Source: a virus
Lineage: Duplodnaviria > Caudoviricetes
Length of the DNA stretch: 64,000 bases
Direction: 5' to 3' (one strand)
Virus record (IMG/VR): IMGVR_UViG_3300038524_000024
Span: 32,001-96,000 of that record
The notes beneath the pieces were generated by a model, which ran no database searches, was not told where the DNA came from, and saw nothing but the letters and a program-made list of their open reading frames with translations. Position 1 is the first letter of the stretch. Each line of letters begins with the position of its first letter. The translations under genes were made by a program, and so were the position numbers. This document shows, piece by piece, positions 4,701 through 24,531 of the stretch.

Positions 4701-5743
4701 AAATAATTGCTATTAACCTTGACGAAGAACTTGATGTGTATGATGTTGAAATGGGTGCGCCCTCGCATACTATTATTGCCGAATCCGGTTTGGTTGTCTC
4801 TAATTCGCATTCATATTCTGTTGCTGGGGATAGTATGTATGGCGCCTACTTAAAATCTCATTATCCGCTTGAATTTTATGAGGTTTTATTAAATCTTTGT
4901 GAAGAAGATGGCGATAAAGAAAGACTAGCCATGACAAAAGATGAAGCAAAAAAAGCGTATAAAATAAAGTTTCCACCATTCAGGTTCGGACAGGACAATA
5001 GAGCAATTGTATCAAATAAAGAAAAATGGGAAATCACATCTAGTTTACAAAGCATAAAGGGTTTTGGTAAGAAAGTTGGAGAAGATATGTTTGCTCTTGC
5101 AAATAATAAGTTTAATAATTTTCTCGATTTACTTATTTTTGCAGAAGACAAAGGTATGTTGTATTCGTATTTTGAGAAGTTGATACAAATTCAATATTTT
5201 GATGAATTTGGTGGTAATCTCAAATTACATAAACTTTATAAAGAATTCATAGAAGGGAAGAACAGATATGTAAAAACCCATACGGAAAAAACTAAAGCTA
5301 AGAGAATACAAGAACTGAGAACATATTGGAAAACATTGCCAGATGAAAGTTACAATCTTGTTAGTCAGATAGAAATGGAATTGTCAATTCTTGGTTCGAT
5401 TCACGCACAATATAATATACCAAGAGAATACTTATATGTTATGTCTGTTGATACACAATATGCCCCTAGAATTGAAACATATTGCCTAGCAACTGGCACT
5501 GTAAATTCATTAAAAATAAGAAAAAAAATATATGAAAATAATATATTTTATGGTGGCGATATTATCAAATTAGATATGGCATCGCGTAGTGATGGCTCGC
5601 TTATGTTTTTTACTAAGGAGCCACGTAGAAAGTTTGAAAATGGAATATTTGTAGATTCTGATGATGAATTTGATTGGTGGTCTGCAAGATATGAGGTTGT
5701 CCAAGTGGATAGCTTTACAAAAATTGTTGAAAATTCATATTGA
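1715..5743 (+). CDS. dnaE: DNA polymerase III alpha subunit (phage DnaE/YorL type), intein-containing
   Basis: PHP domain YHKHDHYS, GRGSA, PDIDL, KNDLL, YQE, YSFNA|SHS. Confidence 0.95.
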   Translation: MNKYVNYHKHDHYSNIITPDSAVTPLDYLNRSLELSHTVLSSVNHGTVGRYIEYYDLAKKNGMKFLFGVEAYIVNDRIAEIDGKRDATNAHIVLLAKNENGRKNINRIISQANIDGFYYRPRIDMGLLLSLPKDDVWVTTACLAGIWRLDSTNETILKIFEHFGMNFFLEVQSHHVKEQAIINKRIINLSNQYGIPIIAGIDSHYIYSNQAKDRDDFLLSRGVKYEDEDNWFMDFPSYDEVYERFIKQGVLSTPQIKEALNNTLIFEMVEEYDSPIFNMDVKLPTLYPTKTQQEKNVIFENLVNDRWQEEKKNIPVDKISLYEQEIAKEVETIIDTNMADYFLLDYEIVKRGVEMGGHITLTGRGSAPSYYLSKLLGITTIDRISAEVKLFPERFITKERILEAGTLPDIDLNLGNPDIFYQAQKKILGENNSFPMLAYGTAKPKAAWKIYARAQGLDFPTANAVSDDIDRYEMSLKHAETEEDRQDVDILEYISPKYIDMYQNSVKYQGTVSDAKVAPCGFLIYNGNIPEEIGVIKLKDNLCTVMDGAWAEHYNFLKNDLLKVSVVELIYRIYNKLNIKPHTLQEIITLSEGNNKVWDVYKNAWTAGINQLEQGSTRGRVARYAPTNISELSAFVAAIRPGFKSYYKRFESREPFSFGVSSLDKLIQTERFPFSYMLYQENAMNVLQYAGIPTSQTYEVVKNIAKKRAEKVYKYKESFTEGMTKRLVEDENITTKRAKEIAHDTWQVIEDSSNYSFNACLSRKTKIQKAGTKINSFNPTIEEMFLIKNNRQYAVETKHLALHSKYKTYGYGNALSMDDDGRIRKNKIIDIRYAGYKQTYKVITNSGAHVICTDNHKFPTNNGIKQLKQLSVGDSLYVAGQYEKYNNNEARRLTNGNFESNLPKNGEKGFQERPDGASRKFNDFRNSRKHSCISCESCGAAYSNDNRFEVHHKDFDHKNNSAENLMWLCTSCHKTKHYENGRKKAYEKGIPTHLEKIIAINLDEELDVYDVEMGAPSHTIIAESGLVVSNSHSYSVAGDSMYGAYLKSHYPLEFYEVLLNLCEEDGDKERLAMTKDEAKKAYKIKFPPFRFGQDNRAIVSNKEKWEITSSLQSIKGFGKKVGEDMFALANNKFNNFLDLLIFAEDKGMLYSYFEKLIQIQYFDEFGGNLKLHKLYKEFIEGKNRYVKTHTEKTKAKRIQELRTYWKTLPDESYNLVSQIEMELSILGSIHAQYNIPREYLYVMSVDTQYAPRIETYCLATGTVNSLKIRKKIYENNIFYGGDIIKLDMASRSDGSLMFFTKEPRRKFENGIFVDSDDEFDWWSARYEVVQVDSFTKIVENSY
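3992..4804 (+). mobile_element. Intein in DnaE with HNH endonuclease (271 aa)
   Basis: Starts CLSRKTKI after YSFNA, block B TDNHKF, HNH (CESC..EVHHKD..NN..NL..LC..CH), ends VYDVEM..VVSN followed by +1 Ser. Confidence 0.9.
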
Positions 5744-5768
5744 CAAATTCAATAGTTTGATGTATAAT
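5740..5768 (+). promoter_or_regulatory. Consensus sigma70/sigmaA promoter
   Basis: TTGACA (5740-45), 17 bp spacer, TATAAT (5763-68), then AAAGGAG RBS before ATG 5795. Confidence 0.85.
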
Positions 5769-5794
5769 TATATAAACATAACAAAGGAGTTATA

Positions 5795-6217
5795 ATGGCT
5801 AGGAAATCAACGAAAAAGGTAAATAAGGATATCAGTATAGAGGAATTAGAGACAGCAAATGCTTTGACTTCGTTTACTGATGAGCAAGTCAAAACAATCG
5901 CAGAAGTCAATACTGAAATAAATGACAGCATGGATATCGTTTCTCCAGAAAACGAGGAAATGATTTTAGTTCAAAAACCATTCGAACTCAATCTAACACA
6001 AACTGTTGGTGTGTCTGGTACGGTAGCCCATATAGATACAAAAGATTTTAGTCAGATTATATTGCTCAGAAAAGTTGCCGGTCTAAAAAGTGGAACAATT
6101 ATAGATATTATTGACACCGATAGACATGGTGGTGTTCATTTTAAAATTGGTGAAACAGAAGCATATTTAAGTACTTATGAAAAAGATAAGTTATGGAAGT
6201 TTTACGGTGAGAAATAA
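5795..6217 (+). CDS. Hypothetical protein
   Basis: 140 aa ORF with strong RBS, directly after the promoter. Confidence 0.7.
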   Translation: MARKSTKKVNKDISIEELETANALTSFTDEQVKTIAEVNTEINDSMDIVSPENEEMILVQKPFELNLTQTVGVSGTVAHIDTKDFSQIILLRKVAGLKSGTIIDIIDTDRHGGVHFKIGETEAYLSTYEKDKLWKFYGEK

Positions 6218-6740
6218 TATAATACTTGTTGATGTCGATGATGTGATAGCCAACCTTGTTGATGGTTGGCTATCAAAATATAATTATTTATCTGGTGACA
6301 ACTTGAAGTCCACAGATATAACCGAATGGGATATATCAAAATTTGTGAAACCAGATTGGAAAGTTTGGATATATGAACTATTAGAAAACCCAAAGTTATA
6401 TGATAGTATAAAGCCGATTGATGGAGCTCTAGATGGAATCAACAGGCTCGTAGCAAAAGGCTATCGTATCGTATATGTAACTTCTCCAGTTATAGAAACC
6501 GCAGGGACAAAATTTCGTTGGCTAACAGAACATAGGTTTCCGATACGGCTAGAAAATTATGTTGAAGCAAGAGACAAGTCATTAATTTTTGGGCATTTTA
6601 TGATAGACGACGGAATACATAATATTCAAACAACACTTGCAGGAGATGCACTGTTGTTTTCTAAACCTTGGAATGAAGGTTATGATAATTATACAAGAGT
6701 CAACAACTGGCAAGATATTACAGAGTGGTTTGGAGTATAA
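6177..6740 (+). CDS. 5'(3')-deoxyribonucleotidase (HAD, NT5C family)
   Basis: DVDDVIA motif I, YVTS, K..WL..H, DKSL..MIDD, PWN..RVNNW; start may be GTG 6207. Confidence 0.9.
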   Translation: MKKISYGSFTVRNNIILVDVDDVIANLVDGWLSKYNYLSGDNLKSTDITEWDISKFVKPDWKVWIYELLENPKLYDSIKPIDGALDGINRLVAKGYRIVYVTSPVIETAGTKFRWLTEHRFPIRLENYVEARDKSLIFGHFMIDDGIHNIQTTLAGDALLFSKPWNEGYDNYTRVNNWQDITEWFGV

Positions 6741-7267
6741 TGAAAGTAATCACAATAAGCGGATATGCAAAAGCAGGTAAGGACTTATCAGCGACTATAT
6801 TGAAAGAAAAGTTAGAATTTGCTGGAAAAAAAGTATTGATTGTTCATTATGCAGATTATTTAAAATTCATTGCTCAACAATATTTTGGTTGGGATGGAAA
6901 AAAAGATGAGAAAGGTCGCTCATTATTACAATGGCTTGGAACAGATAAGGTTAGAAAAACTATGCCAGATTTTTGGGTGGACATCGTAGTGCAACTTATT
7001 CGTGTGTTTAGTAATGATTTTGATTATTTTATTGTCCCAGATACCCGTTTTGACAACGAGGTTACATCTATGAAAGAAAATTTTGATACATTGTCAGTCC
7101 ATGTTACTAGATTGAATTTTGATAACGGGCTTACACAAGTACAAAAAAATCACCCATCAGAAATTGCTCTCGACGGGTGGAAATTTGATTGGTATATTAC
7201 TTCTGAAACAGGTAAGGATAACCTATCATATGAAATAAAGAAATTAATTGAATGGTATGAACTATAA
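6740..7267 (+). CDS. Deoxynucleoside monophosphate kinase
   Basis: P-loop GYAKAGKD, ADYLK, R.LLQWLGTD, DTRFDNE, HPSE. Confidence 0.8.
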   Translation: MKVITISGYAKAGKDLSATILKEKLEFAGKKVLIVHYADYLKFIAQQYFGWDGKKDEKGRSLLQWLGTDKVRKTMPDFWVDIVVQLIRVFSNDFDYFIVPDTRFDNEVTSMKENFDTLSVHVTRLNFDNGLTQVQKNHPSEIALDGWKFDWYITSETGKDNLSYEIKKLIEWYEL

Positions 7268-7290
7268 ATCAACAACGAATTGAGGTAAAA

Positions 7291-10200
7291 TTGGCACTAT
7301 ACGAGCTACAACAGCAAGACATTAGACCATTTAGGTTATCGGAAGAATTTTTAGACCCATATAAAACACGTAAACCAGATTTTGGTTTCAATGGTTTGGG
7401 CGAACTTACCTATAGACGAACTTATTCTCGCATCATGCCAGATGGCAAAAAAGAAGAATGGTGGCAAACCATTAGGCGTGTAATTGAGGGTGTTTATACC
7501 ATGCAAAAGAAATGGATTGTTACTAATAATCTTGGTTGGGATAATATCAAAGCTCAAAAATCAGCAAAAGAAATGTATGAGCGAATGTTCGTAATGAAAT
7601 TTCTTCCTGCGGGTAGAGGTTTATGGGCGTGGGGAAGCCCTATTACAGAAGAAAAAGGTCTATATTTAGCACTAAATTCATGTGCTATGGTAACAACAGA
7701 AACAATAAAAGAAAAATTAGCGGAACCATTCTGTTTTCTTATGGACGCTTCAATGCTAGGGGTTGGCGTTGGCTTCGACACTAAAGGGGCTGACAAGATT
7801 ATTATCAACGAACCATCTATTGAGACTGACACTTACCAAATCTCTGATGACCGTGAAGGATGGGTTATTAGTGTTGAAAAGCTTATCAATTCTTATTTTT
7901 TGCCTAATCAAAAAACAATTCAATTTGACTACTCTCTTATTAGACCAGCAGGTGAGTTGATAAAAGGTTTTGGTGGAGTTGCCAGTGGTTCTGAAGCTTT
8001 GGCTCGTTTACATAACGATATGCGTATGCTATTGAATAAAAGAATTGGTCAAAGAATTACGTCGCGCGATATAGTTGATATTATGAACATGATTGGTAAA
8101 TGTGTTATTGCCGGAAATGTTCGACGTACAGCTGAGATAGCATTTGGTGAAGTAGATGACGACGAATTTTTAAATCTAAAAAATTATGAATTGAATCCTG
8201 AACGTATGGATTATGGTTGGACTTCTAATAATTCTATTTTTGCTCAAGTTGGTATGGATTATAATAATATTGCCGATAGAATTAAAGACAATGGTGAACC
8301 AGGATTAGAATGGTTAGAAAATGCTAGAGCATATTCAAGAATGGGAGATGCGCCGGACTATAAAGATAGGAAGGTTGTTGGTGCAAACCCATCATTGAGA
8401 ATTGGTACAAAAATCATTACTGACAATGGAATTTTCCCTATCGAAAAACTCGAAGGGCAAAAGTTTAAAGTAATTAATCTCGATGGGCAATGGTCTAACG
8501 CAGAATGCTTTTTATCTGGGGAAAACAAACCTTTATATAGGGTTATACTATCCGGCAATGTAGAATATTTTGCAACAGATGAACATAAGTGGGCTATAAC
8601 CACTGGTAAACATAATGAACCTTTTAGTAAAAAGAAAACGTCTGAACTAGTAAAGGGTGATAAACTACCAATCAATACTGTTTCTAAAGAGCATTTTGGC
8701 AATTTAGGAACTTATTCAGATGGGTTTTTATGTGGATGGATTTATGGTGACGGATGGATTACAAAGCGTGGAGACAGTGGACAAACACAAATTGGCATGG
8801 TTATTTCTAAAAAAGACGGAATATACGGCGGTATAAAACCCATTATCGAAGAGAAATTAAAAGAAATTGGCATACATACATCATTGCCGTTCAGAGAAAG
8901 AAAAGGAATTCAAGGATGGTATGAATTTAGCACTCAAAATAAAACATTAGAGGGCTTTTTATCTAACTTTGGATGCAGTAATAAAAGAAACGGTCTGCCA
9001 AGTGAAATATGGAATGGTGTTACCAAAGAATTTACATATGGATTTCTAGATGGGCTATTATCGTCAGATGGAAATGTCGAAAAGGGTAAAAGAGTCTCGC
9101 TTAGCAGTGCGCACGAAAATTTAGCAAAAGATGTTCTTGATTTACTTGGTTGCTTGGGCATACCTGCAAATATGCATAAAAGAACGACTAGGTTAAAAGG
9201 TTATGATAAAAGTTATATAAGTTATGTTATTCGTTTTCAAGGTCATTATCTTGATAATAAGTTTAGTTTAAGTAATAAATTTAAACAAGACAGGTTGAAC
9301 GAAATGTCGGAAGGGATAATTCATAAAAGTCCTTTGAGACATGTCGTATCTGTTACTAAAACACACCTTAGTGAAAACGTTTGGGATATTACAGTATATG
9401 ACGATACACATTGCTTCTCTCTACCAAATGTCATTACTGGAAATTGTAATGAGCAAAGTTTGGAATCAATGGAGACGTGTTTACTTGTAGAATCGTTCCC
9501 AAATAGAAATGAAAACCTAGAAGATTATAAACGAACATTAAAATTCGCATATCTATACGCAAAAACAGTTACTCTTGCCAAAACTCATTGGGCAGAAACT
9601 AATCGTGTCATGCTGCGTAATCGCAGAATAGGTTTGTCTATGTCTGGAATCGCACAATTTATTACGGACAGAGGACTCAATGAATTAAAACAGTGGTGCG
9701 AAGAGGGATATAAGACGATTAGATATTATGACAATGTATATTCCGATTGGCTTGCTATTCCCAAAAGCATAAAAGTAACTTCTGTAAAACCATCTGGAAG
9801 TGTTAGTCTACTTGCCGGTGCAACTGCTGGTATACACTATCCAGAAAGTAATTTTTATATTCGTAGAATTAGATTGTCCAAATTCTCAGACCTTATTGAG
9901 CCTTTACAAAACGCAGGATATAAGGTTGAGTTGGCTGTTGGGCAAGAGGATAGTACGGTGGTAGTTGAATTTCCAGTATCGCTAGGCAAGAAGATGAGAA
10001 CCATCAAAGATTTGTCCATGTGGGAACAATTATCTCTCGGTGCTTTTATGCAAAGATATTGGTCTGATAATCAAGTATCACAGACCGTTACATTCAATCC
10101 AGAACTAGAAGGCAAAGATATTGCACATGCCTTAGAATACTTCCAATATCAATTAAAGGGGGTTAGCTTTCTTCCAACTTTGGAATATGGTGCTTATCCA

Positions 10201-10335
10201 CAAATGCCATATGAAGCTATTACCGAAGACGAATATAATGATATGATGAGTAAAATCACTGTAGCCGATTTTTCAAGTAATGTAGAAGATGCTATTGATG
10301 AAAAGTTTTGTAATAATGATGTTTGTACTATATAA
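7291..10335 (+). CDS. nrdJ: Class II (adenosylcobalamin) ribonucleoside-triphosphate reductase, intein-containing
   Basis: YRRTYSR, PAGRGLW, GNVRRTAEI, SNNS, NP|CNEQ, VKPSGSVS, C-terminal CxxxxC. Confidence 0.95.
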   Translation: MALYELQQQDIRPFRLSEEFLDPYKTRKPDFGFNGLGELTYRRTYSRIMPDGKKEEWWQTIRRVIEGVYTMQKKWIVTNNLGWDNIKAQKSAKEMYERMFVMKFLPAGRGLWAWGSPITEEKGLYLALNSCAMVTTETIKEKLAEPFCFLMDASMLGVGVGFDTKGADKIIINEPSIETDTYQISDDREGWVISVEKLINSYFLPNQKTIQFDYSLIRPAGELIKGFGGVASGSEALARLHNDMRMLLNKRIGQRITSRDIVDIMNMIGKCVIAGNVRRTAEIAFGEVDDDEFLNLKNYELNPERMDYGWTSNNSIFAQVGMDYNNIADRIKDNGEPGLEWLENARAYSRMGDAPDYKDRKVVGANPSLRIGTKIITDNGIFPIEKLEGQKFKVINLDGQWSNAECFLSGENKPLYRVILSGNVEYFATDEHKWAITTGKHNEPFSKKKTSELVKGDKLPINTVSKEHFGNLGTYSDGFLCGWIYGDGWITKRGDSGQTQIGMVISKKDGIYGGIKPIIEEKLKEIGIHTSLPFRERKGIQGWYEFSTQNKTLEGFLSNFGCSNKRNGLPSEIWNGVTKEFTYGFLDGLLSSDGNVEKGKRVSLSSAHENLAKDVLDLLGCLGIPANMHKRTTRLKGYDKSYISYVIRFQGHYLDNKFSLSNKFKQDRLNEMSEGIIHKSPLRHVVSVTKTHLSENVWDITVYDDTHCFSLPNVITGNCNEQSLESMETCLLVESFPNRNENLEDYKRTLKFAYLYAKTVTLAKTHWAETNRVMLRNRRIGLSMSGIAQFITDRGLNELKQWCEEGYKTIRYYDNVYSDWLAIPKSIKVTSVKPSGSVSLLAGATAGIHYPESNFYIRRIRLSKFSDLIEPLQNAGYKVELAVGQEDSTVVVEFPVSLGKKMRTIKDLSMWEQLSLGAFMQRYWSDNQVSQTVTFNPELEGKDIAHALEYFQYQLKGVSFLPTLEYGAYPQMPYEAITEDEYNDMMSKITVADFSSNVEDAIDEKFCNNDVCTI
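8392..9444 (+). mobile_element. Intein in NrdJ with LAGLIDADG endonuclease (351 aa)
   Basis: Starts SLRIGTKI after GANP, TDEHKW, LCGWIYGDG and FLDGLLSSDG, ends VWDITV..ITGN followed by +1 Cys. Confidence 0.9.
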
Positions 10336-10353
10336 ACCGTTGTGGATAATGTT

Positions 10354-11391
10354 ATGAAATTTGGAAGTTTATTTACTGGAATTGGCGGTTTTGATTTAGG
10401 GCTTTCAAATTCTGGAATGGAATGTGTTTGGCAGGTTGAGAACGATATAACCTGCCAGCACATACTAAGAAAACATTTTAATGGCGTTAAATTATATGAT
10501 AGTGTAAAAAAAGTAGGCAAAGACAACTTGGAAAAAATTGACCTTATCTGCGGTGGGTTTCCTTGCCAAGAGATATCTAAAGCCGGAAATCGTAAAGGAT
10601 TAAATGGAAGACGTAGTGGTTTGTGGTTTGAATATAAAAGAATTATTAGCGAATTACTTCCCAGATGGGTTATTATCGAAAACGTTCCGGGTTTGCTCAC
10701 ATCTGGAAATGGAGAAGACTTCAAAGAAGTTATCGGGTCGATTGATGAATTCGGGTATGGTGTTTCGTGGAGAATCTTGGATAGCAAATATTTCGGAGTC
10801 CCACAACGGCGCCGTAGACTCTTTATTGTCGGAAGTCTTGGAAACAACAGTTCATCCAAAGTACTTTTTGAGCGAAAGAGCCTGTCGGGGGATATTGAGG
10901 AGACTAATAACAAAAAAATCAAAAATCAAGAACCAAGAAGCAATTCTAATGGCTCTAAATCTTCGTATAACCCCACCATCTGGTGGAATGGAAGTCAAAT
11001 AAGCCAGACATTAGATAGGACACTATATAAAAGACAGGCAATGCCAGAAAAAGGAAGATTTCCTGCTGTTTTAACACCCATTTGGAGCAAATGCGAACTA
11101 TGTGAGAACTATTGGTGTAATATTCATGGAATGCATGTTGCTGATTGTGATTGCCCACCGGTAGAAGATTTTACAGAATGCTCTACGTATCCATACGATG
11201 CTTCATTATTACGCTATCTAACCCCATTAGAATGTGAAAGGCTACAAGGATTTCCAGACAATTGGACTGTTTGTAATATAGATGATATAGAAATATCTGA
11301 TATGCAAAGATATAAAAAAATTGGCAATGCGGTTACTGTGAATGTAGCAGAATGGATTGGAAAGCGAATTATGGAAGTAGATAAACTTTAG
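10354..11391 (+). CDS. dcm: DNA (cytosine-5)-methyltransferase
   Basis: FTGIGG (I), GGFPCQ (IV), ENVPG (VI), PQRRRR (VIII), RYLTPLECERLQGFP (IX), GNAV (X). Confidence 0.95.
   Translation: MKFGSLFTGIGGFDLGLSNSGMECVWQVENDITCQHILRKHFNGVKLYDSVKKVGKDNLEKIDLICGGFPCQEISKAGNRKGLNGRRSGLWFEYKRIISELLPRWVIIENVPGLLTSGNGEDFKEVIGSIDEFGYGVSWRILDSKYFGVPQRRRRLFIVGSLGNNSSSKVLFERKSLSGDIEETNNKKIKNQEPRSNSNGSKSSYNPTIWWNGSQISQTLDRTLYKRQAMPEKGRFPAVLTPIWSKCELCENYWCNIHGMHVADCDCPPVEDFTECSTYPYDASLLRYLTPLECERLQGFPDNWTVCNIDDIEISDMQRYKKIGNAVTVNVAEWIGKRIMEVDKL
10604..11002 (+). CDS. Putative nested out-of-frame methyltransferase beta polypeptide (M.EcoHK31I-type arrangement)
   Basis: 132 aa ORF entirely inside dcm in another frame; AAAGGA upstream of ATG; SG..NSGM..SE....SLLSEVLE..PKYFLS..ACRGILRR signature. 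Confidence 0.6.
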   Translation: MEDVVVCGLNIKELLANYFPDGLLSKTFRVCSHLEMEKTSKKLSGRLMNSGMVFRGESWIANISESHNGAVDSLLSEVLETTVHPKYFLSERACRGILRRLITKKSKIKNQEAILMALNLRITPPSGGMEVK

Positions 11392-11401
11392 GAGATTCAA
11401 T

Positions 11402-13081
11402 ATGAAAATAGATGTTCTTGATAAAGGATTTGTTGAATTACTTGAAAGTATGGGAAATGATAGTACCATTGCGGAATCTGCTAGAATTTCTCATTTAGGT
11501 AAATATAAATCTGATGAAGCAGATGCAAAACTTATTCGTAATCTAATTACTAGTGGACACACTTCACCACTAGAACAGGTTGAATTTCGATTTCTTGTAA
11601 AAGCACCCATATATGTCGCAAGACAATGGATGAGACATCGTACATGGTGTTTAAGCGGGGATACAGAAATAACATTCAACAGACCAGATAGGTGGAATCG
11701 AGGAATGCATACAAAGCAATCTCCATTTTTTGAAGACGGATTTACAATAAAAGAATTGTATAGGAAATGGAAGAAGTCTGAGCATTCAAAAAATATTATT
11801 TCATCTATGCTGCTACGTGTTTATGATGAAAAAGAAAAAAAATTCACTATTTCTAATATAAAAAATATTCTATATAGTGGTAAAAAAGAAGTATATAAAG
11901 TATCAACCCAATCTGGAAAAAATATTAAATGTTCAAAAGACCATCTGTTTTTAACTGGGGAAGGGTGGATGACACTAGAAAAAGCTCTCGGATTAGGGTT
12001 GACTAATAGCAATTTAGCGTATATGACTGATAATAGCGCTTTTTTTCTAACTAATGGAGAGCAATTATATCAAAACAAAGAGTGGCTATCAAACCAAAAA
12101 ACTTTAGGAAAATCTGTACAGGATATGGCAGATGAAGCTGGATGTGGATATTATACAATAAGAAAATATTTAAAGCGATATAACTTACAGTTTGACCCTC
12201 TCCAAAATTTAGCAGGGGTCAACGGGAAACCAGTTTGGAACAAGGGTGTTTATGGATATAAATTAAATACTATTTTTTCAGAAGAAGCTAAAGAGAATAT
12301 AAGAAAAGCTAGGGCGGGAGAAAAATCTAACTTTTGGAAAGGAGGAGTTACCTCTGATAGAGCACGCATAGCAGGGTGGGCCAACAGTGTTGCAAAAAGT
12401 GTGCATGCCAAGAATAATTATACATGCCAGCGTTGTAATAAGGTTGGAGGAAAGTTGCATGCCCATCATATTATGCCAGTAGTGGATTATCCAGAAAAAG
12501 CATATGATATAAAAAATTTAACAACGCTATGTGAAAATTGCCACAAAGAGATTCATAATAATAAAGAAAACAATAGAAGCAAAAACGGAACTCCTTTACT
12601 GGCTAAATTAGAACAGATAGTTTCTATTGAGTATATTGGTATTGAAGATACATATGATATAGAAGTCGAAGGAGAACATCACAACTTTGTAGCAAACGGG
12701 TTTGTTGTTCATAACTCATACTCCGAGGTTTCCCGTAGATACACATCAAAAGATATGGATTTTTATGTACCACAATTTGACAGTGAGGATGCAAAACACG
12801 CCTATGAACAATCTGTTTTCATATCGCTCAACGCATACAATAAGCTTATAGAAGAGTCGGTCAGAAAAGAACAGGCAAGAGGTGTTCTACCAACTTGTTT
12901 GTACACAACATTCTATGCTAAAACGGACTTGCACAATCTCTTTCATTTTCTAGAGTTAAGACTAGGCAAAGGTGCTCAATATGAAATAGTAGAATATGCT
13001 AATGCAATTTGTAAATTGATTGAGCCAATAGCACCAATAACAATGCAGATTTGGCTAGAAAAATATAATGTGGTAAAATAA
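11402..13081 (+). CDS. thyX: FAD-dependent thymidylate synthase, intein-containing
   Basis: GHTSPLEQ, RQWMRHRTW|SYSEVSRRY, EQARGVLP, FLELR..AQYEI. Confidence 0.95.
   Translation: MKIDVLDKGFVELLESMGNDSTIAESARISHLGKYKSDEADAKLIRNLITSGHTSPLEQVEFRFLVKAPIYVARQWMRHRTWCLSGDTEITFNRPDRWNRGMHTKQSPFFEDGFTIKELYRKWKKSEHSKNIISSMLLRVYDEKEKKFTISNIKNILYSGKKEVYKVSTQSGKNIKCSKDHLFLTGEGWMTLEKALGLGLTNSNLAYMTDNSAFFLTNGEQLYQNKEWLSNQKTLGKSVQDMADEAGCGYYTIRKYLKRYNLQFDPLQNLAGVNGKPVWNKGVYGYKLNTIFSEEAKENIRKARAGEKSNFWKGGVTSDRARIAGWANSVAKSVHAKNNYTCQRCNKVGGKLHAHHIMPVVDYPEKAYDIKNLTTLCENCHKEIHNNKENNRSKNGTPLLAKLEQIVSIEYIGIEDTYDIEVEGEHHNFVANGFVVHNSYSEVSRRYTSKDMDFYVPQFDSEDAKHAYEQSVFISLNAYNKLIEESVRKEQARGVLPTCLYTTFYAKTDLHNLFHFLELRLGKGAQYEIVEYANAICKLIEPIAPITMQIWLEKYNVVK
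11648..12715 (+). mobile_element. Intein in ThyX with HNH endonuclease (356 aa)
   Basis: Starts CLSGDTEI, SKDHLF block B, HNH (CQRC..HAHHI..NL..LCENCH..IH), ends TYDIEV..VVHN followed by +1 Ser. Confidence 0.92.
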
Positions 13082-13082
13082 A

Positions 13083-13952
13083 ATGTCTATCTTAATCTCT
13101 AATGAAAACGAATTGACTCCAGTAGATAAAATAGATGATTTTTTATTTGTTAAAAGAGATGATTTATTTTCTCCTTCTGATGCATCCGGTATCAATGGAG
13201 GAAAATTGAGACAATGTATTTTTTTATTCAAGTCAATTGAGCATAAATACAATGGAGTTATAACAGGTTGTGGAATATATTCACCCCAATCGTCTATTGT
13301 ATCTTATGTTGCAAATAAGCAAGAAATTCCTTCTTATGTTTGTGTGGGTGGAACTACGGAAAATAATATAAACCAAAACAAATATTTATCTTTATCTAAA
13401 AAATATGGTGGTCAAATAATTAATTTAAAAAGTGGAAGACACACCGTGCTATATAAATACGCAAGAGAAAGAGCATTAAAAGATAATTTGTTTTTAGTAA
13501 ATTATGGTATCAACCTAGACGATAACATGCAATCCCTTATTTTTTCTACTGCTAATCAAGTAGAAAATATACCGGACTATTTAGACAATTTATTTATTAC
13601 TTGTGGTAGCGGAATCACGTCCATTGGAATATTAGTTGGAATAAAAAAGTTTGGCAAAAAGATAAGAAATATTACATTGATAGGAAACGCACCAAATAGA
13701 ACTTTAAAAATAAAAAAAACATTAGCACTAATAGAAAATTATGATAATCAATACAAAGGTGTTTTAGACATTGATTTTAATTTTATAGACAGATATTCAG
13801 ATATAAATTTCAAATATGAAAGAAAAGAAACTGGATTTCTAAATGATATATTGCTGCACCCAAACTATGAAGCAAAAGCTTGGAATTATATAGTTCAAGA
13901 AAAACTACTATCTGGAAAAAATTTATTTTGGATAGTGGGTGCTTCTTTATAA
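13083..13952 (+). CDS. Fold-type II PLP-dependent enzyme (ACC deaminase/D-cysteine desulfhydrase-like)
   Basis: VKRDDLF..NGGKLRQ (PLP lysine), SPQ, TCGSGIT phosphate loop, PNYEAKAW. Confidence 0.85.
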   Translation: MSILISNENELTPVDKIDDFLFVKRDDLFSPSDASGINGGKLRQCIFLFKSIEHKYNGVITGCGIYSPQSSIVSYVANKQEIPSYVCVGGTTENNINQNKYLSLSKKYGGQIINLKSGRHTVLYKYARERALKDNLFLVNYGINLDDNMQSLIFSTANQVENIPDYLDNLFITCGSGITSIGILVGIKKFGKKIRNITLIGNAPNRTLKIKKTLALIENYDNQYKGVLDIDFNFIDRYSDINFKYERKETGFLNDILLHPNYEAKAWNYIVQEKLLSGKNLFWIVGASL

Positions 13953-13963
13953 GAAAGGAAATT

Positions 13964-15043
13964 ATGACATACAAATATCCAATTCAACTAACTCAACAGT
14001 TTCGTTTTTGTGGAAATGCTTTTAGAATAGACCTATATCGGGGCTGTGATTTTGGTTGTAATTATTGTTTTGCTAACAATCGTGGGGGAGGCATTAAAAG
14101 AGGTTACGATAGCGCAGAGTTTGAACAAATTGAAAATTTATTTACAAAAGCTTTTGAATCTGATAAGGAATATAAAGATGTAACAGTTGAACTTATAAAG
14201 AGAAAAGTTCCCTTGCATTTGGGTGGCATGTCAGACCCTTTTCAAGAAAGAGAATTTGAACAAGAGTTGTCTTATAAATTGTTGGAATTGACTAAAAAAT
14301 ATAATTATCCAATGATTATATCTACAAAGCAAGCTTTTTTACCTGAAAAATATTGGCAAGTTATGGATAATAAAATTCATGCTTTTCAAATTAGTTTAAT
14401 GGGATATGATGATAGTTTCCTTACTCAATACGAGGGAAATACCCCAAGCGTAACAGAAAGAATTGCATTTATGCAAAAATTACATGACAATGGTTTTTGG
14501 GTATCTCTACGTTTGCAACCACTAATTGATTTAGAACAAGCAAAGAAAGTTATTGTGGCTGTTGAAGATATTGTCAACTATATTACTATAGAACATTTGA
14601 AAATTCCTAATGATAATGTGGAAATTAAAAATTTATTTGCGCCACTCATAAAAAAGGAGGATTATTATTATCCTAGTTCTATGCGTAACATGGAACTTAA
14701 AAAAGAAATAAAAGAATATAATTTTAATGAAATTAAAAAAATTACTAAAATTAAATTAGGTGCTGGTGATAATGATTTACATTATTTGTCAGATAGCCGA
14801 AATTGCTGTGGTATTGATACGATTGGAAAAGAATTTGATAACTGGTTAAAATATAATTATACATATTTTGTGACAGGTGATAAAAGTGAAAATTTTGACG
14901 AGCTATGGTGTCCTGTCGGAAATGTAAATAGTTTTTTAAATCCTGATACTCGCATAAAGGGATTTAATAGTTACAAACAATATACAGATGCATATACAGA
15001 AAAATTTGGTAAGAAAATGAAAAGGTTAGAAAAAAATGAATAA
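13964..15043 (+). CDS. Radical SAM enzyme (SPL/Rv2578c-like)
   Basis: DLYRGCDFGCNYCFA (CxxxCxxC), GGMSDPFQ..E, ISTK, PS..ER, RLQP; ATG 13964 after AAAGGAA. Confidence 0.9.
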   Translation: MTYKYPIQLTQQFRFCGNAFRIDLYRGCDFGCNYCFANNRGGGIKRGYDSAEFEQIENLFTKAFESDKEYKDVTVELIKRKVPLHLGGMSDPFQEREFEQELSYKLLELTKKYNYPMIISTKQAFLPEKYWQVMDNKIHAFQISLMGYDDSFLTQYEGNTPSVTERIAFMQKLHDNGFWVSLRLQPLIDLEQAKKVIVAVEDIVNYITIEHLKIPNDNVEIKNLFAPLIKKEDYYYPSSMRNMELKKEIKEYNFNEIKKITKIKLGAGDNDLHYLSDSRNCCGIDTIGKEFDNWLKYNYTYFVTGDKSENFDELWCPVGNVNSFLNPDTRIKGFNSYKQYTDAYTEKFGKKMKRLEKNE

Positions 15044-15094
15044 ACTAGATTAAAATAAAATATAACTTTCATTTGAAACAATAAGGAGATTCTT

Positions 15095-15283
15095 GTGCGT
15101 GAAATAGACCGTATAGACCGTATCTTAAATATCATTTCAAAACTCTGGCATTTAATGCCAGATTTGAGATTGGGGCAACTTCTATATAATTTCGCTGGCT
15201 TTGGAGATAAAGAGTATTATATAGAGGACGATATCACTGAAGAGAAATTGTTAGCATCACTGCGTAAGTGGAATATTGAATGA
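15095..15283 (+). CDS. Small conserved-type phage protein
   Basis: MRE.DRI..IL..W...PDLRLGQLL pattern; AAGGAG RBS. Confidence 0.7.
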   Translation: MREIDRIDRILNIISKLWHLMPDLRLGQLLYNFAGFGDKEYYIEDDITEEKLLASLRKWNIE

Positions 15284-15501
15284 TAATCGTAACTCATATA
15301 TATTTATGTGAAGTTTGTGGTAAAATTGTATCAGAAACGGAAGAGGGTGACCGCTATGGTGATGACCTTATAGATTATCCTAAAGGTTGGATAGATGTTT
15401 GGAAAGATGATAACCACAATGTTGGATATTGCCCAGAATGTGCAGAGAAGCATAAGGATGAATATTATTTAGATAAAAATAGTTTTTATTGGTACAAATA
15501 A
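15280..15501 (+). CDS. Small zinc-finger protein
   Basis: CEVC ... CPEC; ATGA overlap with upstream gene. Confidence 0.65.
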   Translation: MIIVTHIYLCEVCGKIVSETEEGDRYGDDLIDYPKGWIDVWKDDNHNVGYCPECAEKHKDEYYLDKNSFYWYK

Positions 15502-15516
15502 AAGGAATCTATACAT

Positions 15517-15816
15517 ATGAGAAACGAACGTCAAGAAATATACTGTCACGAGTGTAATAATTATGTCCAATTTGTCATTGACCTTGAACTGAACGGAAAT
15601 CATGTTCTCAAATGTCCAAAATGTGGACACGAACATTGTCGAGTTGTTAGGAACGGAATTATCACCGATGACAGATGGGATAGTAGAAATGGAGCAGCGA
15701 TATATGTATCAAGATATACAATCACTTATAGCACAAATTCATATGCTACAACTTCAAGTTTTGGTACAGCCACAAACGCTTTCATCTTTGCCTCTGCCGG
15801 CACCTCGGTAGCATAA
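15517..15816 (+). CDS. Zinc-ribbon protein
   Basis: CHEC ... CPKCGHEHC. Confidence 0.65.
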   Translation: MRNERQEIYCHECNNYVQFVIDLELNGNHVLKCPKCGHEHCRVVRNGIITDDRWDSRNGAAIYVSRYTITYSTNSYATTSSFGTATNAFIFASAGTSVA

Positions 15817-15827
15817 AGGGAGATTCT

Positions 15828-16039
15828 ATGGGATGCGTAGAAAATGTAGATTACAATAAGTTTCCAAAACAAAGTAACTGGCTTAATAAAAGAACAAGGG
15901 TTTGTTTTTTTATGGAGAAAAGACTCTTAAGGGTACAATCGTTAGAGAAGATATGGAAGACCCTTTTAGAACAATAATTCGCCTTGATGATGGTAGATAT
16001 ATATTGTCTGGTGAATGTCAATATGCACCAGAAAATTAA
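15828..16039 (+). pseudogene. Small phage gene split by a frameshift in a T7 run
   Basis: MGCVENVDYNKFPKQSNWLNKRTRVCFF continues in the -1 frame as YGEKTLKGTIVREDMEDPFRTIIRLDDGRYILSGECQYAPEN; RBS GGGAG. Confidence 0.55.
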
Positions 16040-16047
16040 TAAAATAA

Positions 16048-16275
16048 ATGTTTATGACAACACTAAAGAAAGGTTTTATGAAAATTAATATAGAAGATAT
16101 TCAAAAGAATCTCGACCAAAGAAAAGAGTGGAACCTTTTTCCACTTGATAAAATTGAATTCTATGAAAATGGTATAAAATTAGAGATACCCAAAGATGTG
16201 ATTATTCAATTTGAAAAAATTGGATTGAATAATGTTGATTTCATTACTAGTGGATATTATAAAAGGAAATTTTAA
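16048..16275 (+). CDS. Hypothetical protein
   Basis: 75 aa ORF; start may be ATG 16078 after GAAAGG. Confidence 0.55.
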   Translation: MFMTTLKKGFMKINIEDIQKNLDQRKEWNLFPLDKIEFYENGIKLEIPKDVIIQFEKIGLNNVDFITSGYYKRKF

Positions 16276-16276
16276 A

Positions 16277-16726
16277 ATGAATTCTGAATATGGAGATTTC
16301 AAACTGAATTCTGAACTTGGTACTTATACGACAGAAAACTTTGAATTAACAAAGAAGCATGAATTTGATGCAGGACTTGATATTTGCTCAAATGAAAATA
16401 TCGAAGTACCAGCAAGAGGAAGACAACTTGTGATGACCGGAATACGGTTGAAAATTCCAGATGGCATGGCAGGACTAGTCTGGTCTAGAAGCGGACTTTC
16501 TGTGGCACATGGTATAGAGGTGGGGGCAGGACTCATTGATTCCACATACAGAGGCGAGTTGGGTGTTTTACTATATAACCACTCTGACGAACCATTTGAG
16601 ATAAAGAAAGGCAATAGAATTGCCCAATTAGTTACTGTTCCAATTATGCTTGATACATATCTAAAAGTTGAAACATTAGATGAAACGCCTCGTGGTGAAG
16701 GTGGATTTGGTAGTACAGGAATATAA
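16277..16726 (+). CDS. dut: Trimeric dUTPase
   Basis: AGLDI, SRSG, GLIDSTYRGE, RIAQL, RGEGGFGSTG (motifs 1-5). Confidence 0.95.
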   Translation: MNSEYGDFKLNSELGTYTTENFELTKKHEFDAGLDICSNENIEVPARGRQLVMTGIRLKIPDGMAGLVWSRSGLSVAHGIEVGAGLIDSTYRGELGVLLYNHSDEPFEIKKGNRIAQLVTVPIMLDTYLKVETLDETPRGEGGFGSTGI

Positions 16727-16735
16727 TAAAAAGGT

Positions 16736-16770
16736 AAAAAATACCCCCTCGAATGAGGGGGTATTTTTTT
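16736..16770. terminator. Bidirectional intrinsic terminator between the convergent arms
   Basis: AAAAAATACCCCCTC-GAAT-GAGGGGGTATTTTTT. Confidence 0.9.
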
Positions 16771-18061: not shown

Positions 18062-18397
18062 CTATTCAACAATTGGTGTTGCTACATATAATGTATCACA
18101 AACTGTAAACCTAACTTTTTCAGTAAAAAACTTTCCTAAACTGGTTTCCACATAGCCTTGAACAGACCATACACCCGGTTTATCTATATCCCCGGCAATA
18201 GTTATGTATTGTAATATTCCATCAGCTCCATTCGTTAAGAATGAAGCTGATTTTTGCACCTTTGTTCCAGATGGATTCTGGAAATAAATATATTTTACAT
18301 CAGCGGTATCAAGGTCAATTGGTACGCCGTTTTCATCGGTGACAATTAGCCTAAATATAGTACCAACGTCCCCTTTATGAATAAATGTTGACTTCAT
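18062..18397 (-). CDS. BppU N-terminal-like structural protein
   Basis: GDVGT.F...VTDENGVPIDL..A...PSG...DG.LQY....GDID.PG.W..Q pattern. Confidence 0.6.
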   Translation of the reverse strand: MKSTFIHKGDVGTIFRLIVTDENGVPIDLDTADVKYIYFQNPSGTKVQKSASFLTNGADGILQYITIAGDIDKPGVWSVQGYVETSLGKFFTEKVRFTVCDTLYVATPIVE

Positions 18398-19641: not shown

Positions 19642-19662
19642 AGACACTCCTTTCTAACAGGT

Positions 19663-20367
19663 TTATACTGTTAAGGTTATTTTTGACCTGTTTCCATTTG
19701 TATCTACTGCTGCCACAATTACATTTGATGTATCGTCAACACCACGGAAAGTTATAGTTGAAGTTTCTGCTCCGGACACTTTTCCAGCTAATGCTGATGC
19801 GAGTATTTTAAGAATTTGGCGCATGGTGTAAGTACCAACAACAAGTTCATCTAAAATAGAATCTACTGCTTCGGATGTTAATTTTACCCCGTCCGTGCCA
19901 GTGTCGGCGAGGATGTCCGTGACCGCCTTGCTGAATGAGCCAGCGGAAGTGTGTCCGCTTGTGGCTTCATCCAGAACAGCATCAGCAATGCCAGCCGCAG
20001 TAACGCCAGCCAACTCGTACCAGCGCGTAGTCCAGTCAGGCGTTGAAGTGTCGCCAGCCAAGCCGTCAACGTAAACCGTCAGCACGTCCCCATTCCTGAC
20101 CGTAATCCAGCCGGATTGCCCTGAGATTGCGGTCAAGCCCGAAGCCGCCGCCATCGTGGTTTGTGGCAGGATGCGGTAAGCCGAGCCAGAGCCGCCGATT
20201 TGCCGAGTAACGTACATAACGTAATCGCCGTTGCCAGCCACCGCGTCTATTGATACATCGCACATGACGAGCTTATCGCCTGTTGACGTGTAAGCCCCGA
20301 CTGCGGTTGCCGCGCTGATGTCTACATTCGTTCCTGTATCCGTTTCTAAGTGCGTAAATACTGCCAT
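19663..20367 (-). CDS. Putative tail-associated protein, compositionally chimeric
   Basis: ADAVLDE..GH...GSF repeat; C-terminal T.RQ.L...ASALAGKVSG..D.NGNR; 5' part GC-rich, 3' part AT-rich. Confidence 0.65.
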   Translation of the reverse strand: MAVFTHLETDTGTNVDISAATAVGAYTSTGDKLVMCDVSIDAVAGNGDYVMYVTRQIGGSGSAYRILPQTTMAAASGLTAISGQSGWITVRNGDVLTVYVDGLAGDTSTPDWTTRWYELAGVTAAGIADAVLDEATSGHTSAGSFSKAVTDILADTGTDGVKLTSEAVDSILDELVVGTYTMRQILKILASALAGKVSGAETSTITFRGVDDTSNVIVAAVDTNGNRSKITLTV

Positions 20368-20379
20368 ATAAGCCTCCGA

Positions 20380-20655: not shown

Positions 20656-20678
20656 AATAGTTCCTCCGATTAGATTGA

Positions 20679-21526: not shown

Positions 21527-21596
21527 ATTTCACCTCTACTTTACCATATAAAAGTTTCATTTTAAGACTGAGCACAATCGCTTGCGCCCCACTCTT

Positions 21597-21622: not shown

Positions 21623-21639
21623 TTTCTAGTTGTTTATTA

Positions 21640-23990: not shown

Positions 23991-23992
23991 TC

Positions 23993-24530: not shown

Positions 24531-24531
24531 G

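What the first reader, a model, noticed from the sequence alone, without database searches (positions are those of the whole stretch)
13083..15043. PLP enzyme plus radical SAM pair: candidate new DNA hypermodification route
A fold-type II PLP enzyme and an SPL-like radical SAM enzyme (extra Cys in FCG and NCCG) directly follow dcm and thyX in the nucleotide operon. In Pseudomonas phage M6, a radical SAM isomerase and a PLP decarboxylase convert glycyl-thymine in DNA to 5-aminoethyl-uracil, and ViI also uses a PLP decarboxylase. Those routes start from 5-hydroxymethyl-dU and need a dUMP hydroxymethylase, a 5hmU DNA kinase and an amino acid:DNA transferase. None is visible here, and the phage has ThyX, which makes ordinary T. 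Either the missing genes lie outside the window, or this pair acts on a different substrate such as T or 5mC methyl groups in DNA. Orthology to the M6 enzymes is inferred from family and context only.
Basis: partly seen in the sequence, partly recalled or inferred. Interest (0 to 1): 0.72.

Follow-up and report, generated by a model that had tools for sequence, protein, structure and literature searches.

The report
Phage PLP plus radical-SAM DNA-modification pair
Two adjacent phage genes, a PLP enzyme related to known decarboxylases of amino acids attached to DNA and a spore-photoproduct-lyase-like radical SAM enzyme, form a gene pair kept together in many uncultured phages that lack every known enzyme for the first steps of thymine hypermodification, which suggests an undescribed route to modified DNA bases.

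Summary
Window 13083-13952 encodes a fold-type II PLP enzyme. Window 13964-15043 encodes a radical SAM enzyme with CxxxCxxC and three further invariant Cys. Both lie in one nucleotide-metabolism operon.

- **PLP enzyme:** it is a full-length homologue of ViI gp226 (hhalign 99.95%) and M6 gp52 (98.4%), the two proven decarboxylases of amino acids attached to DNA.
- **Radical SAM enzyme:** its closest solved fold is spore photoproduct lyase. It matches M6 gp53 only over the core, so it is not an orthologue.
- **Pairing:** 72 of 80 viral loci with the PLP gene carry this radical SAM family within 5 kb, 67 of them adjacent. Seven of the eight exceptions are contig edges. All 12 close matches in bacterial assemblies also have it.
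- **Reverse direction:** only 2 of 80 radical SAM loci carry the PLP gene, so the radical SAM gene mostly stands alone.
- **Missing entry enzymes:** amino acid:DNA transferase, 5-hmdU DNA kinases, ThyA-type hydroxymethylase and TET/JBP are absent from the 105-kb own record. They are also absent from 33 pair-carrying records, 18 of them at least 90% complete. M6 and ViI served as positive controls for all but TET/JBP.

Most likely this is a DNA hypermodification module with a non-canonical, radical entry step. The chemistry is inferred, not shown. The scan flagged this same stretch twice in overlapping windows, and a similar lone radical SAM gene on other DNA.

The parts
13083..13952 (+). Fold-type II PLP enzyme, 289 aa, of the ViI gp226 / M6 gp52 family of decarboxylases acting on amino acids attached to DNA. 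The Schiff-base lysine is K41, in NGGKLRQ.
   Evidence: PHROG 3650 at E 5.4e-42. BLASTP against gp226 gives 5e-25. hhalign gives 99.95% against gp226 and 98.4% against gp52. K41 aligns with gp226 K92 and gp52 K36 (PMC8989533). Model pLDDT is 92.9 and the fold hits are D-Cys desulfhydrase and ACC deaminase.
13953..13963 (+). An 11-base spacer with an AAAGGA ribosome-binding site between the PLP stop codon and the radical SAM ATG, consistent with co-transcription of the two genes.
   Evidence: Read directly from the sequence.
13964..15043 (+). Radical SAM enzyme with a spore-photoproduct-lyase-like fold, 359 aa. The cluster motif is C29-x3-C33-x2-C36. Invariant extra residues are C17 and C282-C283, with motifs GGMSDPFQ, HAFQxS, RxQP, EHLK and GDNDLH.
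   Evidence: PF04055 at 1.2e-09 and NCBIfam PA0069 family at 2.4e-15. PHROG 13321 at 2.5e-16, which M6 gp53 also hits. Invariant columns come from 32 homologues. Model pLDDT is 89.7 and the top six PDB hits are spore photoproduct lyase, TM about 0.53.
10342..13081 (+). Context: dcm (10342-11391) and intein-containing thyX (11402-13081). Together with the PLP gene they form a 3.6-kb block that is absent from the closest relative.
   Evidence: PF00145 at 8e-72. Translations are. tblastx synteny with L096 shows window 10345-13960 has no counterpart there, apart from the dUTPase, which is relocated.
5740..16769 (+). Context: the presumed operon frame. A perfect TTGACA-17-TATAAT promoter-like site lies at 5740-5768 and a two-way terminator-like hairpin at 16736-16769. 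Between them lie NT5C, a dNMP-kinase-like gene, RNR, dcm, thyX, PLP, radical SAM, small ORFs and dUTPase.
   Evidence: Consensus scans only.

Best explanation
The two genes form a DNA base hypermodification module that works without the known 5-hydroxymethyl-dU entry route.

- **Radical SAM enzyme:** it belongs to a large, mostly stand-alone phage family. The only characterised enzymes it resembles are spore photoproduct lyase (closest fold) and M6 gp53 (core similarity). Per the literature and background knowledge, both act on thymine in DNA through a thymine 5-methylene radical.
- **Proposed first step:** the enzyme acts on phage DNA after replication. It creates or rearranges a base-linked alpha-amino-acid side chain with a free primary amine.
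- **Proposed second step:** the PLP enzyme forms a Schiff base with that amine through K41 and removes the carboxylate. This leaves an aminoalkyl pyrimidine, for example a product like 5-aminoethyl-dU.
- **Likely role:** protection of phage DNA from host nucleases.

**Shown here:** family membership of the PLP enzyme, the fold of both proteins, conservation of catalytic residues, the tight pairing, and the absence of canonical partners.

**Inferred:** DNA as substrate, thymine as target, the order radical SAM then PLP, decarboxylation, and the source of the amino-acid moiety.
For: **PLP family membership**
- hhalign gives 99.95% (E 1.3e-38) against ViI gp226 and 98.4% against M6 gp52, both end to end.
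- There are 24 invariant columns, including the Schiff-base lysine and a C-terminal PxY[ED]xK...W..G motif.
- gp226 nests inside this family in a tree.
- gp226 and gp52 are proven decarboxylases of O-serinyl-T and C-alpha-glycinyl-T in DNA (PMC8989533).

**Pairing**
- Of 80 IMG/VR loci anchored on the PLP gene, 72 hold the radical SAM family within 5 kb and 67 are adjacent.
- Seven of the eight without it have the PLP gene at a contig edge.
- All 12 close PLP matches in bacterial assemblies have it nearby, 10 of them directly adjacent.
- The pairing occurs in three separate radical SAM clades and in both gene orders, and also in M6.
- The thyX-PLP and PLP-radical SAM junctions recur in wastewater metagenomes of other studies.

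**DNA as substrate**
- The PLP family includes fusions to an N6/N4 DNA methylase, to ADDT, and to HMUD2 plus ADDT.
- The radical SAM model's best six solved matches are all spore photoproduct lyase.

**Non-canonical entry**
- PF18724, PF18748, PF18747, PF18723, PF00303 and PF12851 are absent from the own record.
- PF18724, PF18748 and PF00303 are absent from 33 pair-carrying records, 18 of them at least 90% complete, while M6 and ViI score positive in the same searches.
- phmmer with the M6 and ViI proteins finds no transferase or kinase in any of the 160 loci.
- The phage has a canonical ThyX, with the RHR...S....S.RY motif restored across the intein.
Against: - No modified base has been observed, and no cultured phage carries the pair.
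- The radical SAM enzyme is not an orthologue of M6 gp53. Its activity therefore cannot be transferred from M6.
- Most members of the radical SAM family lack the PLP partner (78 of 80 loci). One complete genome with terminal repeats also lacks it. The radical SAM enzyme must therefore have a function of its own, which could be repair rather than modification.
- No classical radical SAM enzyme is known to attach an amino acid to an unmodified DNA base.
- The own record is estimated at 86% complete.
- Undetectably divergent or non-homologous transferases and kinases cannot be excluded. Several neighbouring ORFs have no family.
- In this window and in L013 and L014 the genes sit among nucleotide-pool enzymes. 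That would also fit action on free nucleotides.
Confidence: 0.5

Rival explanations
1. This is the ordinary M6-type pathway. The phage makes 5-hmdU, phosphorylates it, adds glycine with an amino acid:DNA transferase, isomerises it with the radical SAM enzyme and decarboxylates it with the PLP enzyme. The missing genes would lie in the unsequenced part of the genome or be too divergent to detect.
For: The gene order PLP then radical SAM is the same as M6 gp52-gp53. The record is only about 86% complete and linear. Several ORFs of 200-460 aa in the record have no family. Some members of the PLP family are fused to ADDT and HMUD2.
Against: Six family models and tblastn with the M6 and ViI proteins find nothing in 105 kb. 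Eighteen pair-carrying records at least 90% complete lack ADDT, HMUDK and ThyA, while the M6 and ViI controls are positive. The phage encodes a canonical ThyX and a dUTPase, which make T rather than 5-hmU. The radical SAM enzyme is not an orthologue of gp53.
Confidence: 0.1
2. The radical SAM enzyme is a DNA repair lyase of the SplB type that serves phages of anaerobic, often spore-forming Firmicutes. The PLP enzyme does something unrelated to DNA modification, such as an ACC-deaminase or D-cysteine-desulfhydrase type reaction on a small molecule.
For: Spore photoproduct lyase is the closest solved fold. The radical SAM family is mostly stand-alone with no constant partner. The bacterial assembly contigs that hold the pair are labelled mostly Clostridia, for example Clostridium, Oscillibacter, Lachnospiraceae, Ruminococcaceae and Christensenellales. 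SplB-like radical SAM genes are linked to SOS repair operons in bacteria (PMC3765255). By sequence profile and by fold the PLP enzyme is nearest to ACC deaminase and D-Cys desulfhydrase among solved structures.
Against: The PLP gene is almost never found without the radical SAM gene, across three radical SAM clades and two gene orders. It is far closer to gp226 (E 1.3e-38) than to any metabolic enzyme (best PDB profile hit 4.7e-09). Family fusions are to DNA-modification enzymes. The Pfam SPL model does not match the radical SAM enzyme.
Confidence: 0.17
3. The pair modifies 5-methylcytosine made by the adjacent dcm, or by the second C5-methyltransferase of this phage, rather than thymine.
For: dcm lies two genes upstream in the same operon and belongs to the same accessory block as the PLP gene. 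A second C5-methyltransferase lies at G000 25297-26199. The methyl group of 5mC is chemically similar to that of thymine.
Against: Only 8 of 33 pair-carrying records, and 6 of the 18 near-complete ones, encode any C5-methyltransferase. No dcm cluster appears among the conserved neighbours. The characterised relatives act on thymine derivatives.
Confidence: 0.1
4. The pair acts before replication on a free base or nucleotide, and the product is then built into DNA.
For: In the window the genes sit between thyX and dUTPase, in an operon with RNR, a dNMP-kinase-like gene and NT5C. In L013 the pair flanks thyX, a nucleoside deoxyribosyltransferase and dUTPase. In L014 it lies beside xanthine/uracil permeases, a deoxyribosyltransferase and an adenine deaminase.
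Against: In most loci the pair lies between ParB_N genes and the terminase genes, not among nucleotide enzymes. The characterised relatives gp52, gp53 and gp226, and spore photoproduct lyase, all act on DNA polymers. One family member is fused to a DNA methylase.
Confidence: 0.08

Closest known systems
Salmonella phage ViI gp226 (YP_004327553), a PLP-dependent decarboxylase of O-serinyl-thymidine in DNA
   Same: Same protein family: PHROG 3650, hhalign 99.95%, 27% identity end to end. Same Schiff-base lysine and C-terminal motifs, and the same fold type II.
   Different: gp226 is 424 aa with an N-terminal extension and a roughly 55-residue insert. ViI has no radical SAM partner and depends on ThyA-type hydroxymethylase, 5-HMUDK and ADDT (gp247), all absent here.
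Pseudomonas phage M6 gp52-gp53, a PLP decarboxylase plus a radical SAM N-alpha-GlyT isomerase that make 5-aminoethyl-dU
   Same: Adjacent PLP then radical SAM genes in the same order. The PLP enzymes are homologous end to end (hhalign 98.4%). Both radical SAM enzymes hit PHROG 13321 and share the CxxxCxxC core and the upstream Cys.
   Different: In M6 the pair is flanked by ADDT (gp51) and 5-HMUDK (gp54), with a ThyA-type gene nearby. None is present here. The radical SAM similarity is limited to 141 core columns (90%). gp53 is 480 aa, lacks the CCG motif and is a long-branch outgroup.
Spore photoproduct lyase (SplB; PDB 4FHC to 4FHG)
   Same: It is the closest solved structure (Foldseek E 1e-08, TM about 0.53). 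It is a radical SAM enzyme that acts on thymine in DNA.
   Different: Identity is only 13-14%. There is no sequence-level hit to PDB or to the Pfam SPL model. The conserved extra cysteines differ. The context is phage and it is paired with a PLP enzyme.
PA0069 / Rv2578c families of uncharacterised bacterial SplB-like radical SAM proteins (NCBIfam NF033668, NF038135)
   Same: These are the best NCBIfam matches over the radical SAM core (E 2.4e-15 and 2.8e-08).
   Different: Scores of 56 and 33 bits are far below the curated cut-offs of 360 and 430. Those families have no known function either.

Membership tests
ViI gp226 / M6 gp52 family of DNA-linked amino-acid decarboxylases (PHROG 3650 / 7093) | Full-length sequence similarity to the characterised members | tested here: met
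   PHROG 3650 at 5.4e-42 and PHROG 7093 at 8.6e-10. hhalign gives 99.95% and 98.4%, both end to end.
ViI gp226 / M6 gp52 family of DNA-linked amino-acid decarboxylases (PHROG 3650 / 7093) | Fold-type II PLP fold, with the Schiff-base lysine aligned to gp226 K92 and gp52 K36 | tested here: met
   K41 is invariant and aligned. The K92 and K36 assignments come from PMC8989533. Fold hits are D-Cys desulfhydrase and ACC deaminase.
ViI gp226 / M6 gp52 family of DNA-linked amino-acid decarboxylases (PHROG 3650 / 7093) | Decarboxylation of an amino acid attached to a DNA base | not testable with these tools
   This needs an enzyme assay on modified DNA.
Canonical thymidine hypermodification cluster (5-hmdU route) | A source of 5-hmdU: a ThyA-type dUMP hydroxymethylase or a TET/JBP dioxygenase | tested here: not met
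   PF00303 and PF12851 are absent from the own record. PF00303 is absent from 33 relatives while M6 and ViI are positive. The PF12851 search had no positive control.
Canonical thymidine hypermodification cluster (5-hmdU route) | A 5-hmdU DNA kinase | tested here: not met
   PF18748, PF18747 and PF18723 are absent from the own record. PF18748 is absent from 33 relatives with positive controls.
Canonical thymidine hypermodification cluster (5-hmdU route) | An amino acid:DNA transferase (aGPT-Pplase2 / ADDT) | tested here: not met
   PF18724 is absent from the own record at E up to 10 and from 33 relatives. The M6 and ViI controls are positive. tblastn and phmmer are negative.
M6 gp53 N-alpha-GlyT isomerase family (PHROG 9252) | Full-length similarity to gp53 | tested here: not met
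   BLASTP gives E 0.002 over the core only. hhalign gives 90% over 141 columns. PHROG 9252 is not hit. gp53 is a long-branch outgroup.
M6 gp53 N-alpha-GlyT isomerase family (PHROG 9252) | A radical SAM CxxxCxxC cluster plus a second Fe-S site | tested here: inconclusive
   CxxxCxxC is present. Three further invariant Cys (C17, C282, C283) could bind a second cluster, but the CCG motif does not align with gp53.
Spore photoproduct lyase (Pfam SPL, PF20903) | A match to the family model | tested here: not met
   Only PF04055 is reported at E up to 0.1. There is no sequence hit to SPL chains in the PDB.
Spore photoproduct lyase (Pfam SPL, PF20903) | An SPL-like three-dimensional fold | tested here: met
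   The top six Foldseek hits are SPL entries, E 1e-08 to 1e-07, TM 0.50-0.56.
Spore photoproduct lyase (Pfam SPL, PF20903) | The catalytic H-donor Cys and the Tyr relay of SPL | not tested

The most novel reading that the evidence does not exclude
The spore-photoproduct-lyase-like radical SAM enzyme may functionalise an unmodified pyrimidine in DNA directly, most plausibly at the thymine methyl C-H, through a 5-methylene radical. It would attach an amino-acid-type side chain in a single step. One enzyme would then replace the hydroxymethylase, kinase and transferase of all known thymine hypermodification routes. The PLP enzyme would be an optional tailoring step. The hundreds of phages that carry only the radical SAM gene would then contain a so far unseen DNA base.
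Probability: 0.28. Interest if true: 0.9.

Novelty: new variant of a known kind. Interest (0 to 1): 0.72.

Why it matters
All known thymine hypermodifications in phage DNA start from 5-hydroxymethyl-dU. Published surveys found their gene clusters by searching for the 5-hmdU kinase (PMC8989533), so a kinase-free module would have been missed.

This work shows such a module. It is a gp226-type PLP enzyme tied to a radical SAM enzyme whose closest fold is spore photoproduct lyase. It occurs in dozens of viral contigs and in bacterial assemblies labelled mostly Clostridia, some of them flagged as proviruses, and none has a known entry enzyme.

If it modifies DNA, it points to new radical chemistry on DNA. 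It would also point to new bases that could block restriction enzymes and CRISPR nucleases, and to new enzymes for site-directed DNA functionalisation.

The prediction is directly testable with two small genes and nucleoside mass spectrometry.

Tried and rejected
- **DNA similarity to cultured phages:** blastn of the pair found nothing. tblastn of the radical SAM enzyme found only three uncultured faecal phage contigs.
- **Sequence search of the radical SAM enzyme against the PDB:** only chance hits, both with the single sequence and with the profile.
- **Fused forms:** the word-index search for longer PLP proteins found none. The exhaustive profile search did find fusions, but none to a radical SAM domain.
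- **ParB_N as a third component:** ParB_N proteins precede the pair in 56 of the 84 loci clustered, and one weak PLP plus ParB_N fusion is on record. The own genome has no ParB_N, so it is not a required part.
- **A constant partner for stand-alone radical SAM genes:** no neighbour cluster occurs in more than 21 of 82 loci.
- **Exceptions with PLP but no nearby radical SAM gene:**
  - L091 and L015 lie beside lysis-type or unknown genes.
  - The held 58.7-kb part of the L091 record, estimated 28% complete, has no radical SAM gene.
  - The other records are not held.
- **Sequencing runs:** no RNA holder is listed, so nothing can be said about expression. The DNA holders are terrestrial and wastewater metagenomes.
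- **Complex prediction:** not run, because no physical binding is claimed.
- **Spatial check of the extra cysteines:** Whether C17 and C282/C283 sit together could therefore not be checked.
Full report
**What is there**

The window is bases 32001-96000 of a 104,987-bp linear IMG/VR virus record, estimated 86% complete. A plus-strand gene array runs from a perfect sigma-70-like promoter site (5740-5768) to a two-way terminator-like hairpin (16736-16769). It encodes:
- an NT5C nucleotidase and a dNMP-kinase-like protein;
- an intein-bearing ribonucleotide reductase;
- a C5 DNA methyltransferase (10342-11391);
- an intein-split ThyX (11402-13081);
- the two genes of the finding;
- four small ORFs and a dUTPase.

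The thyX stop lies one base before the ATG of the PLP gene (13083-13952). The radical SAM gene starts at the ATG at 13964, 11 bases after the PLP stop and behind an AAAGGA site. It does not start at the upstream TTG of the ORF list.

**The PLP enzyme**

Pfam PALP matches only weakly, but PHROG 3650 matches at 5.4e-42.

| Comparison | Method | Result |
|---|---|---|
| vs ViI gp226 | BLASTP | E 5e-25, 27% identity |
| vs M6 gp52 | BLASTP | E 4e-12, 22% identity |
| family profile vs gp226 | hhalign | 99.95% |
| family profile vs gp52 | hhalign | 98.4% |

Both BLASTP alignments cover nearly the whole protein. The family profile was built from 27 homologues.

K41, in NGGKLRQ, aligns with gp226 K92 and gp52 K36. 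The authors named those residues as the likely Schiff-base lysines (PMC8989533). A C-terminal PxY[ED]xK...W..G motif is shared by all three groups. In a tree gp226 falls inside this family, and gp52 groups with one member. gp226 is a long branch, so its exact position is uncertain.

The AlphaFold model (pLDDT 92.9) is fold-type II. It is nearest to D-cysteine desulfhydrase and ACC deaminase. gp226 and gp52 are experimentally proven decarboxylases of O-serinyl-thymidine and C-alpha-glycinyl-thymidine in DNA. An exhaustive profile search counts 285 clusters at E up to 1e-30. Among them are fusions to an N6/N4 DNA methylase, to ADDT, and to HMUD2 plus ADDT. The family as a whole therefore works on DNA.

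**The radical SAM enzyme**

- It has C29-x3-C33-x2-C36.
- In 32 homologues it also has invariant C17, C282-C283 and several family motifs.
- The model (pLDDT 89.7) has spore photoproduct lyase as its six best solved matches, with TM about 0.53 and 13-14% identity.
- The Pfam SPL model does not match it, and no PDB sequence matches it.
- Similarity to M6 gp53 is confined to the radical SAM core: BLASTP E 0.002, and hhalign 90% over 141 columns.
- Both proteins hit PHROG 13321. gp53 lacks the CCG motif and is a long-branch outgroup.

It is a relative of gp53, not an orthologue.

**The pairing**

I fetched 80 IMG/VR loci with a PLP homologue and 80 with a radical SAM homologue, and searched all six frames with family HMMs.

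| Loci anchored on | Result |
|---|---|
| PLP gene, IMG/VR (80) | 72 have the radical SAM gene within 5 kb |
| | 67 are adjacent |
| | 71 have it upstream on the same strand |
| PLP gene, no radical SAM gene found (8 of the 80) | in 7 the PLP gene sits at the contig edge, where the partner would be cut off |
| PLP gene, bacterial assemblies, close matches (12) | all 12 have the radical SAM gene nearby |
| | 10 are directly adjacent |
| Radical SAM gene, IMG/VR (80) | 2 have the PLP gene within 10 kb |

The bacterial contigs are labelled mostly Clostridia, and some are metagenome bins.

For stand-alone radical SAM genes, no other gene is a constant neighbour. One complete 145-kb genome with terminal repeats has the radical SAM gene and no PLP gene.

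The radical SAM tree has three clades:
- one is always PLP-linked;
- one is unlinked except for its basal member;
- one, the window's own, has 4 linked and 23 unlinked rows.

The pairing thus occurs in three clades, in both gene orders, and in M6. This argues for functional coupling rather than inherited synteny alone. The PLP enzyme looks like an add-on to a radical SAM enzyme that can work alone.

**This phage in particular**

Its closest relative, L096, has a radical SAM protein 91% identical and is collinear across DnaE, NT5C, kinase and RNR. It lacks the 3.6-kb dcm-thyX-PLP block and has the dUTPase in that place. Its 68-kb contig has no PLP gene. Contigs in wastewater metagenomes of other studies cover the thyX-PLP and PLP-radical SAM junctions, some with sequence differences.

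**The missing partners**

| Search | Own 105-kb record | 33 pair-carrying records (18 at least 90% complete) | M6 / ViI control |
|---|---|---|---|
| ADDT (PF18724) | absent (27) | absent (68) | positive (70) |
| 5-hmdU kinase (PF18748) | absent (28) | absent (71) | positive (71) |
| 5-hmdU kinase (PF18747) | absent (29) | not searched | none |
| 5-hmdU kinase (PF18723) | absent (85) | not searched | none |
| ThyA (PF00303) | absent (30) | absent (73) | positive (73) |
| TET/JBP (PF12851) | absent (115) | absent (74) | no match in either (74) |

Numbers in brackets are call numbers. tblastn with the M6 and ViI proteins finds only the PLP gene in the own record. phmmer finds no transferase or kinase in any of the 160 loci.

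Only 8 of the 33 records have a C5-methyltransferase, so 5mC made by a phage dcm is not a general prerequisite. ParB_N proteins precede the pair in many roughly 50-kb contigs, just before the terminase genes, but this genome has none.

The published survey of hypermodification clusters seeded its search with 5-hmdU kinases. It could not have found a kinase-free module. Full-text searches found no paper describing one.

**Interpretation**

*Shown:*
- a gp226/gp52-type PLP enzyme and a radical SAM enzyme with an SPL-like fold;
- both have intact catalytic motifs;
- they form a conserved pair in phages that lack the canonical entry enzymes.

*Inferred:* the radical SAM enzyme makes or unmasks a base-linked amino acid with a free amine on DNA, and the PLP enzyme decarboxylates it. 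This follows the order shown for M6 gp53 and gp52. Thymine is the most likely target for three reasons:
- spore photoproduct lyase works through a thymine 5-methylene radical, by established knowledge;
- the authors propose the same radical for gp53;
- the phage makes its own dTMP.

I put this reading at about 0.5. The rivals are:
- missing canonical genes (0.10);
- repair enzyme plus unrelated PLP enzyme (0.17);
- 5mC as the target (0.10);
- action on free nucleotides (0.08).

The boldest reading that the data allow is direct radical C-H functionalisation of thymine in DNA by one enzyme. That would also give the hundreds of radical-SAM-only phages a new base. I give it about 0.28.

**Verdict**

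This is a new variant of a known kind of system. It is well enough defined to be tested with two genes and nucleoside mass spectrometry.

Noticed in passing
window 3992-4804, 8560-9399, 11648-12728: Three essential genes carry intein-like inserts: DnaE, ribonucleotide reductase and ThyX. The DnaE insert is absent from the close relative L096. A wastewater contig shows a thyX allele that skips 1081 bases exactly at the insert. The ThyX insert splits the RHR...S....S.RY active-site motif.
   Followed up: partly
G000:C1:25297-26978 (upstream of the window; L190:7298-8976): A second C5 DNA methyltransferase and a Dam-like N6 methyltransferase lie side by side. With the dcm in the window, the phage therefore carries three DNA methyltransferases.
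   Followed up: no
loci L096-L175, for example L107 (145-kb complete genome with terminal repeats): A large family of stand-alone radical SAM genes of the same SPL-like kind occurs in phage contigs, with 297 matching stretches in IMG/VR. They have no constant neighbour and no known function. In some contigs they sit beside N6/N4 methylases or a Mom-like gene.
   Followed up: partly
proteins P0275, P0303, P0216, P0328, P0354: Fused forms exist in the PLP family: N6/N4 DNA methylase-PLP, a weak MprF/LPG_synthase_C-like domain-PLP (765 aa, with two unknown 430-450 aa neighbours), PLP with a faint ParB_N match, ADDT-PLP, and HMUD2-PLP-ADDT. The MprF-like fusion hints at an aminoacyl-tRNA-dependent route.
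   Followed up: partly
loci L016-L095, for example L018:7791-10843: In many 40-60 kb contigs, several flagged as proviruses, the order is one or two ParB_N proteins, the radical SAM gene, the PLP gene, small terminase, large terminase. This is the position where temperate phages often keep DNA methyltransferases.
   Followed up: partly
window 20000-26000 and 18394-19647 (-): GC content rises to 0.47-0.49 at two places within 20-26 kb, against about 0.33 elsewhere. A 417-aa ORF next to this stretch consists of many repeats of a roughly 23-residue unit with a recurring 'HEG' motif, probably a fibre-like structural protein.
   Followed up: no
window 10342-11391: The C5 methyltransferase carries a Cys- and His-rich stretch in its variable region, between the catalytic and C-terminal motifs. 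This may be a zinc-binding insert in the target-recognition domain.
   Followed up: no
G000:C1:13740-15236 and 18979-19815 (L189): The genome arm outside the window encodes a DUF2828/VWA protein and an IMPDH/GMP-reductase-like protein, next to a tyrosine integrase.
   Followed up: no
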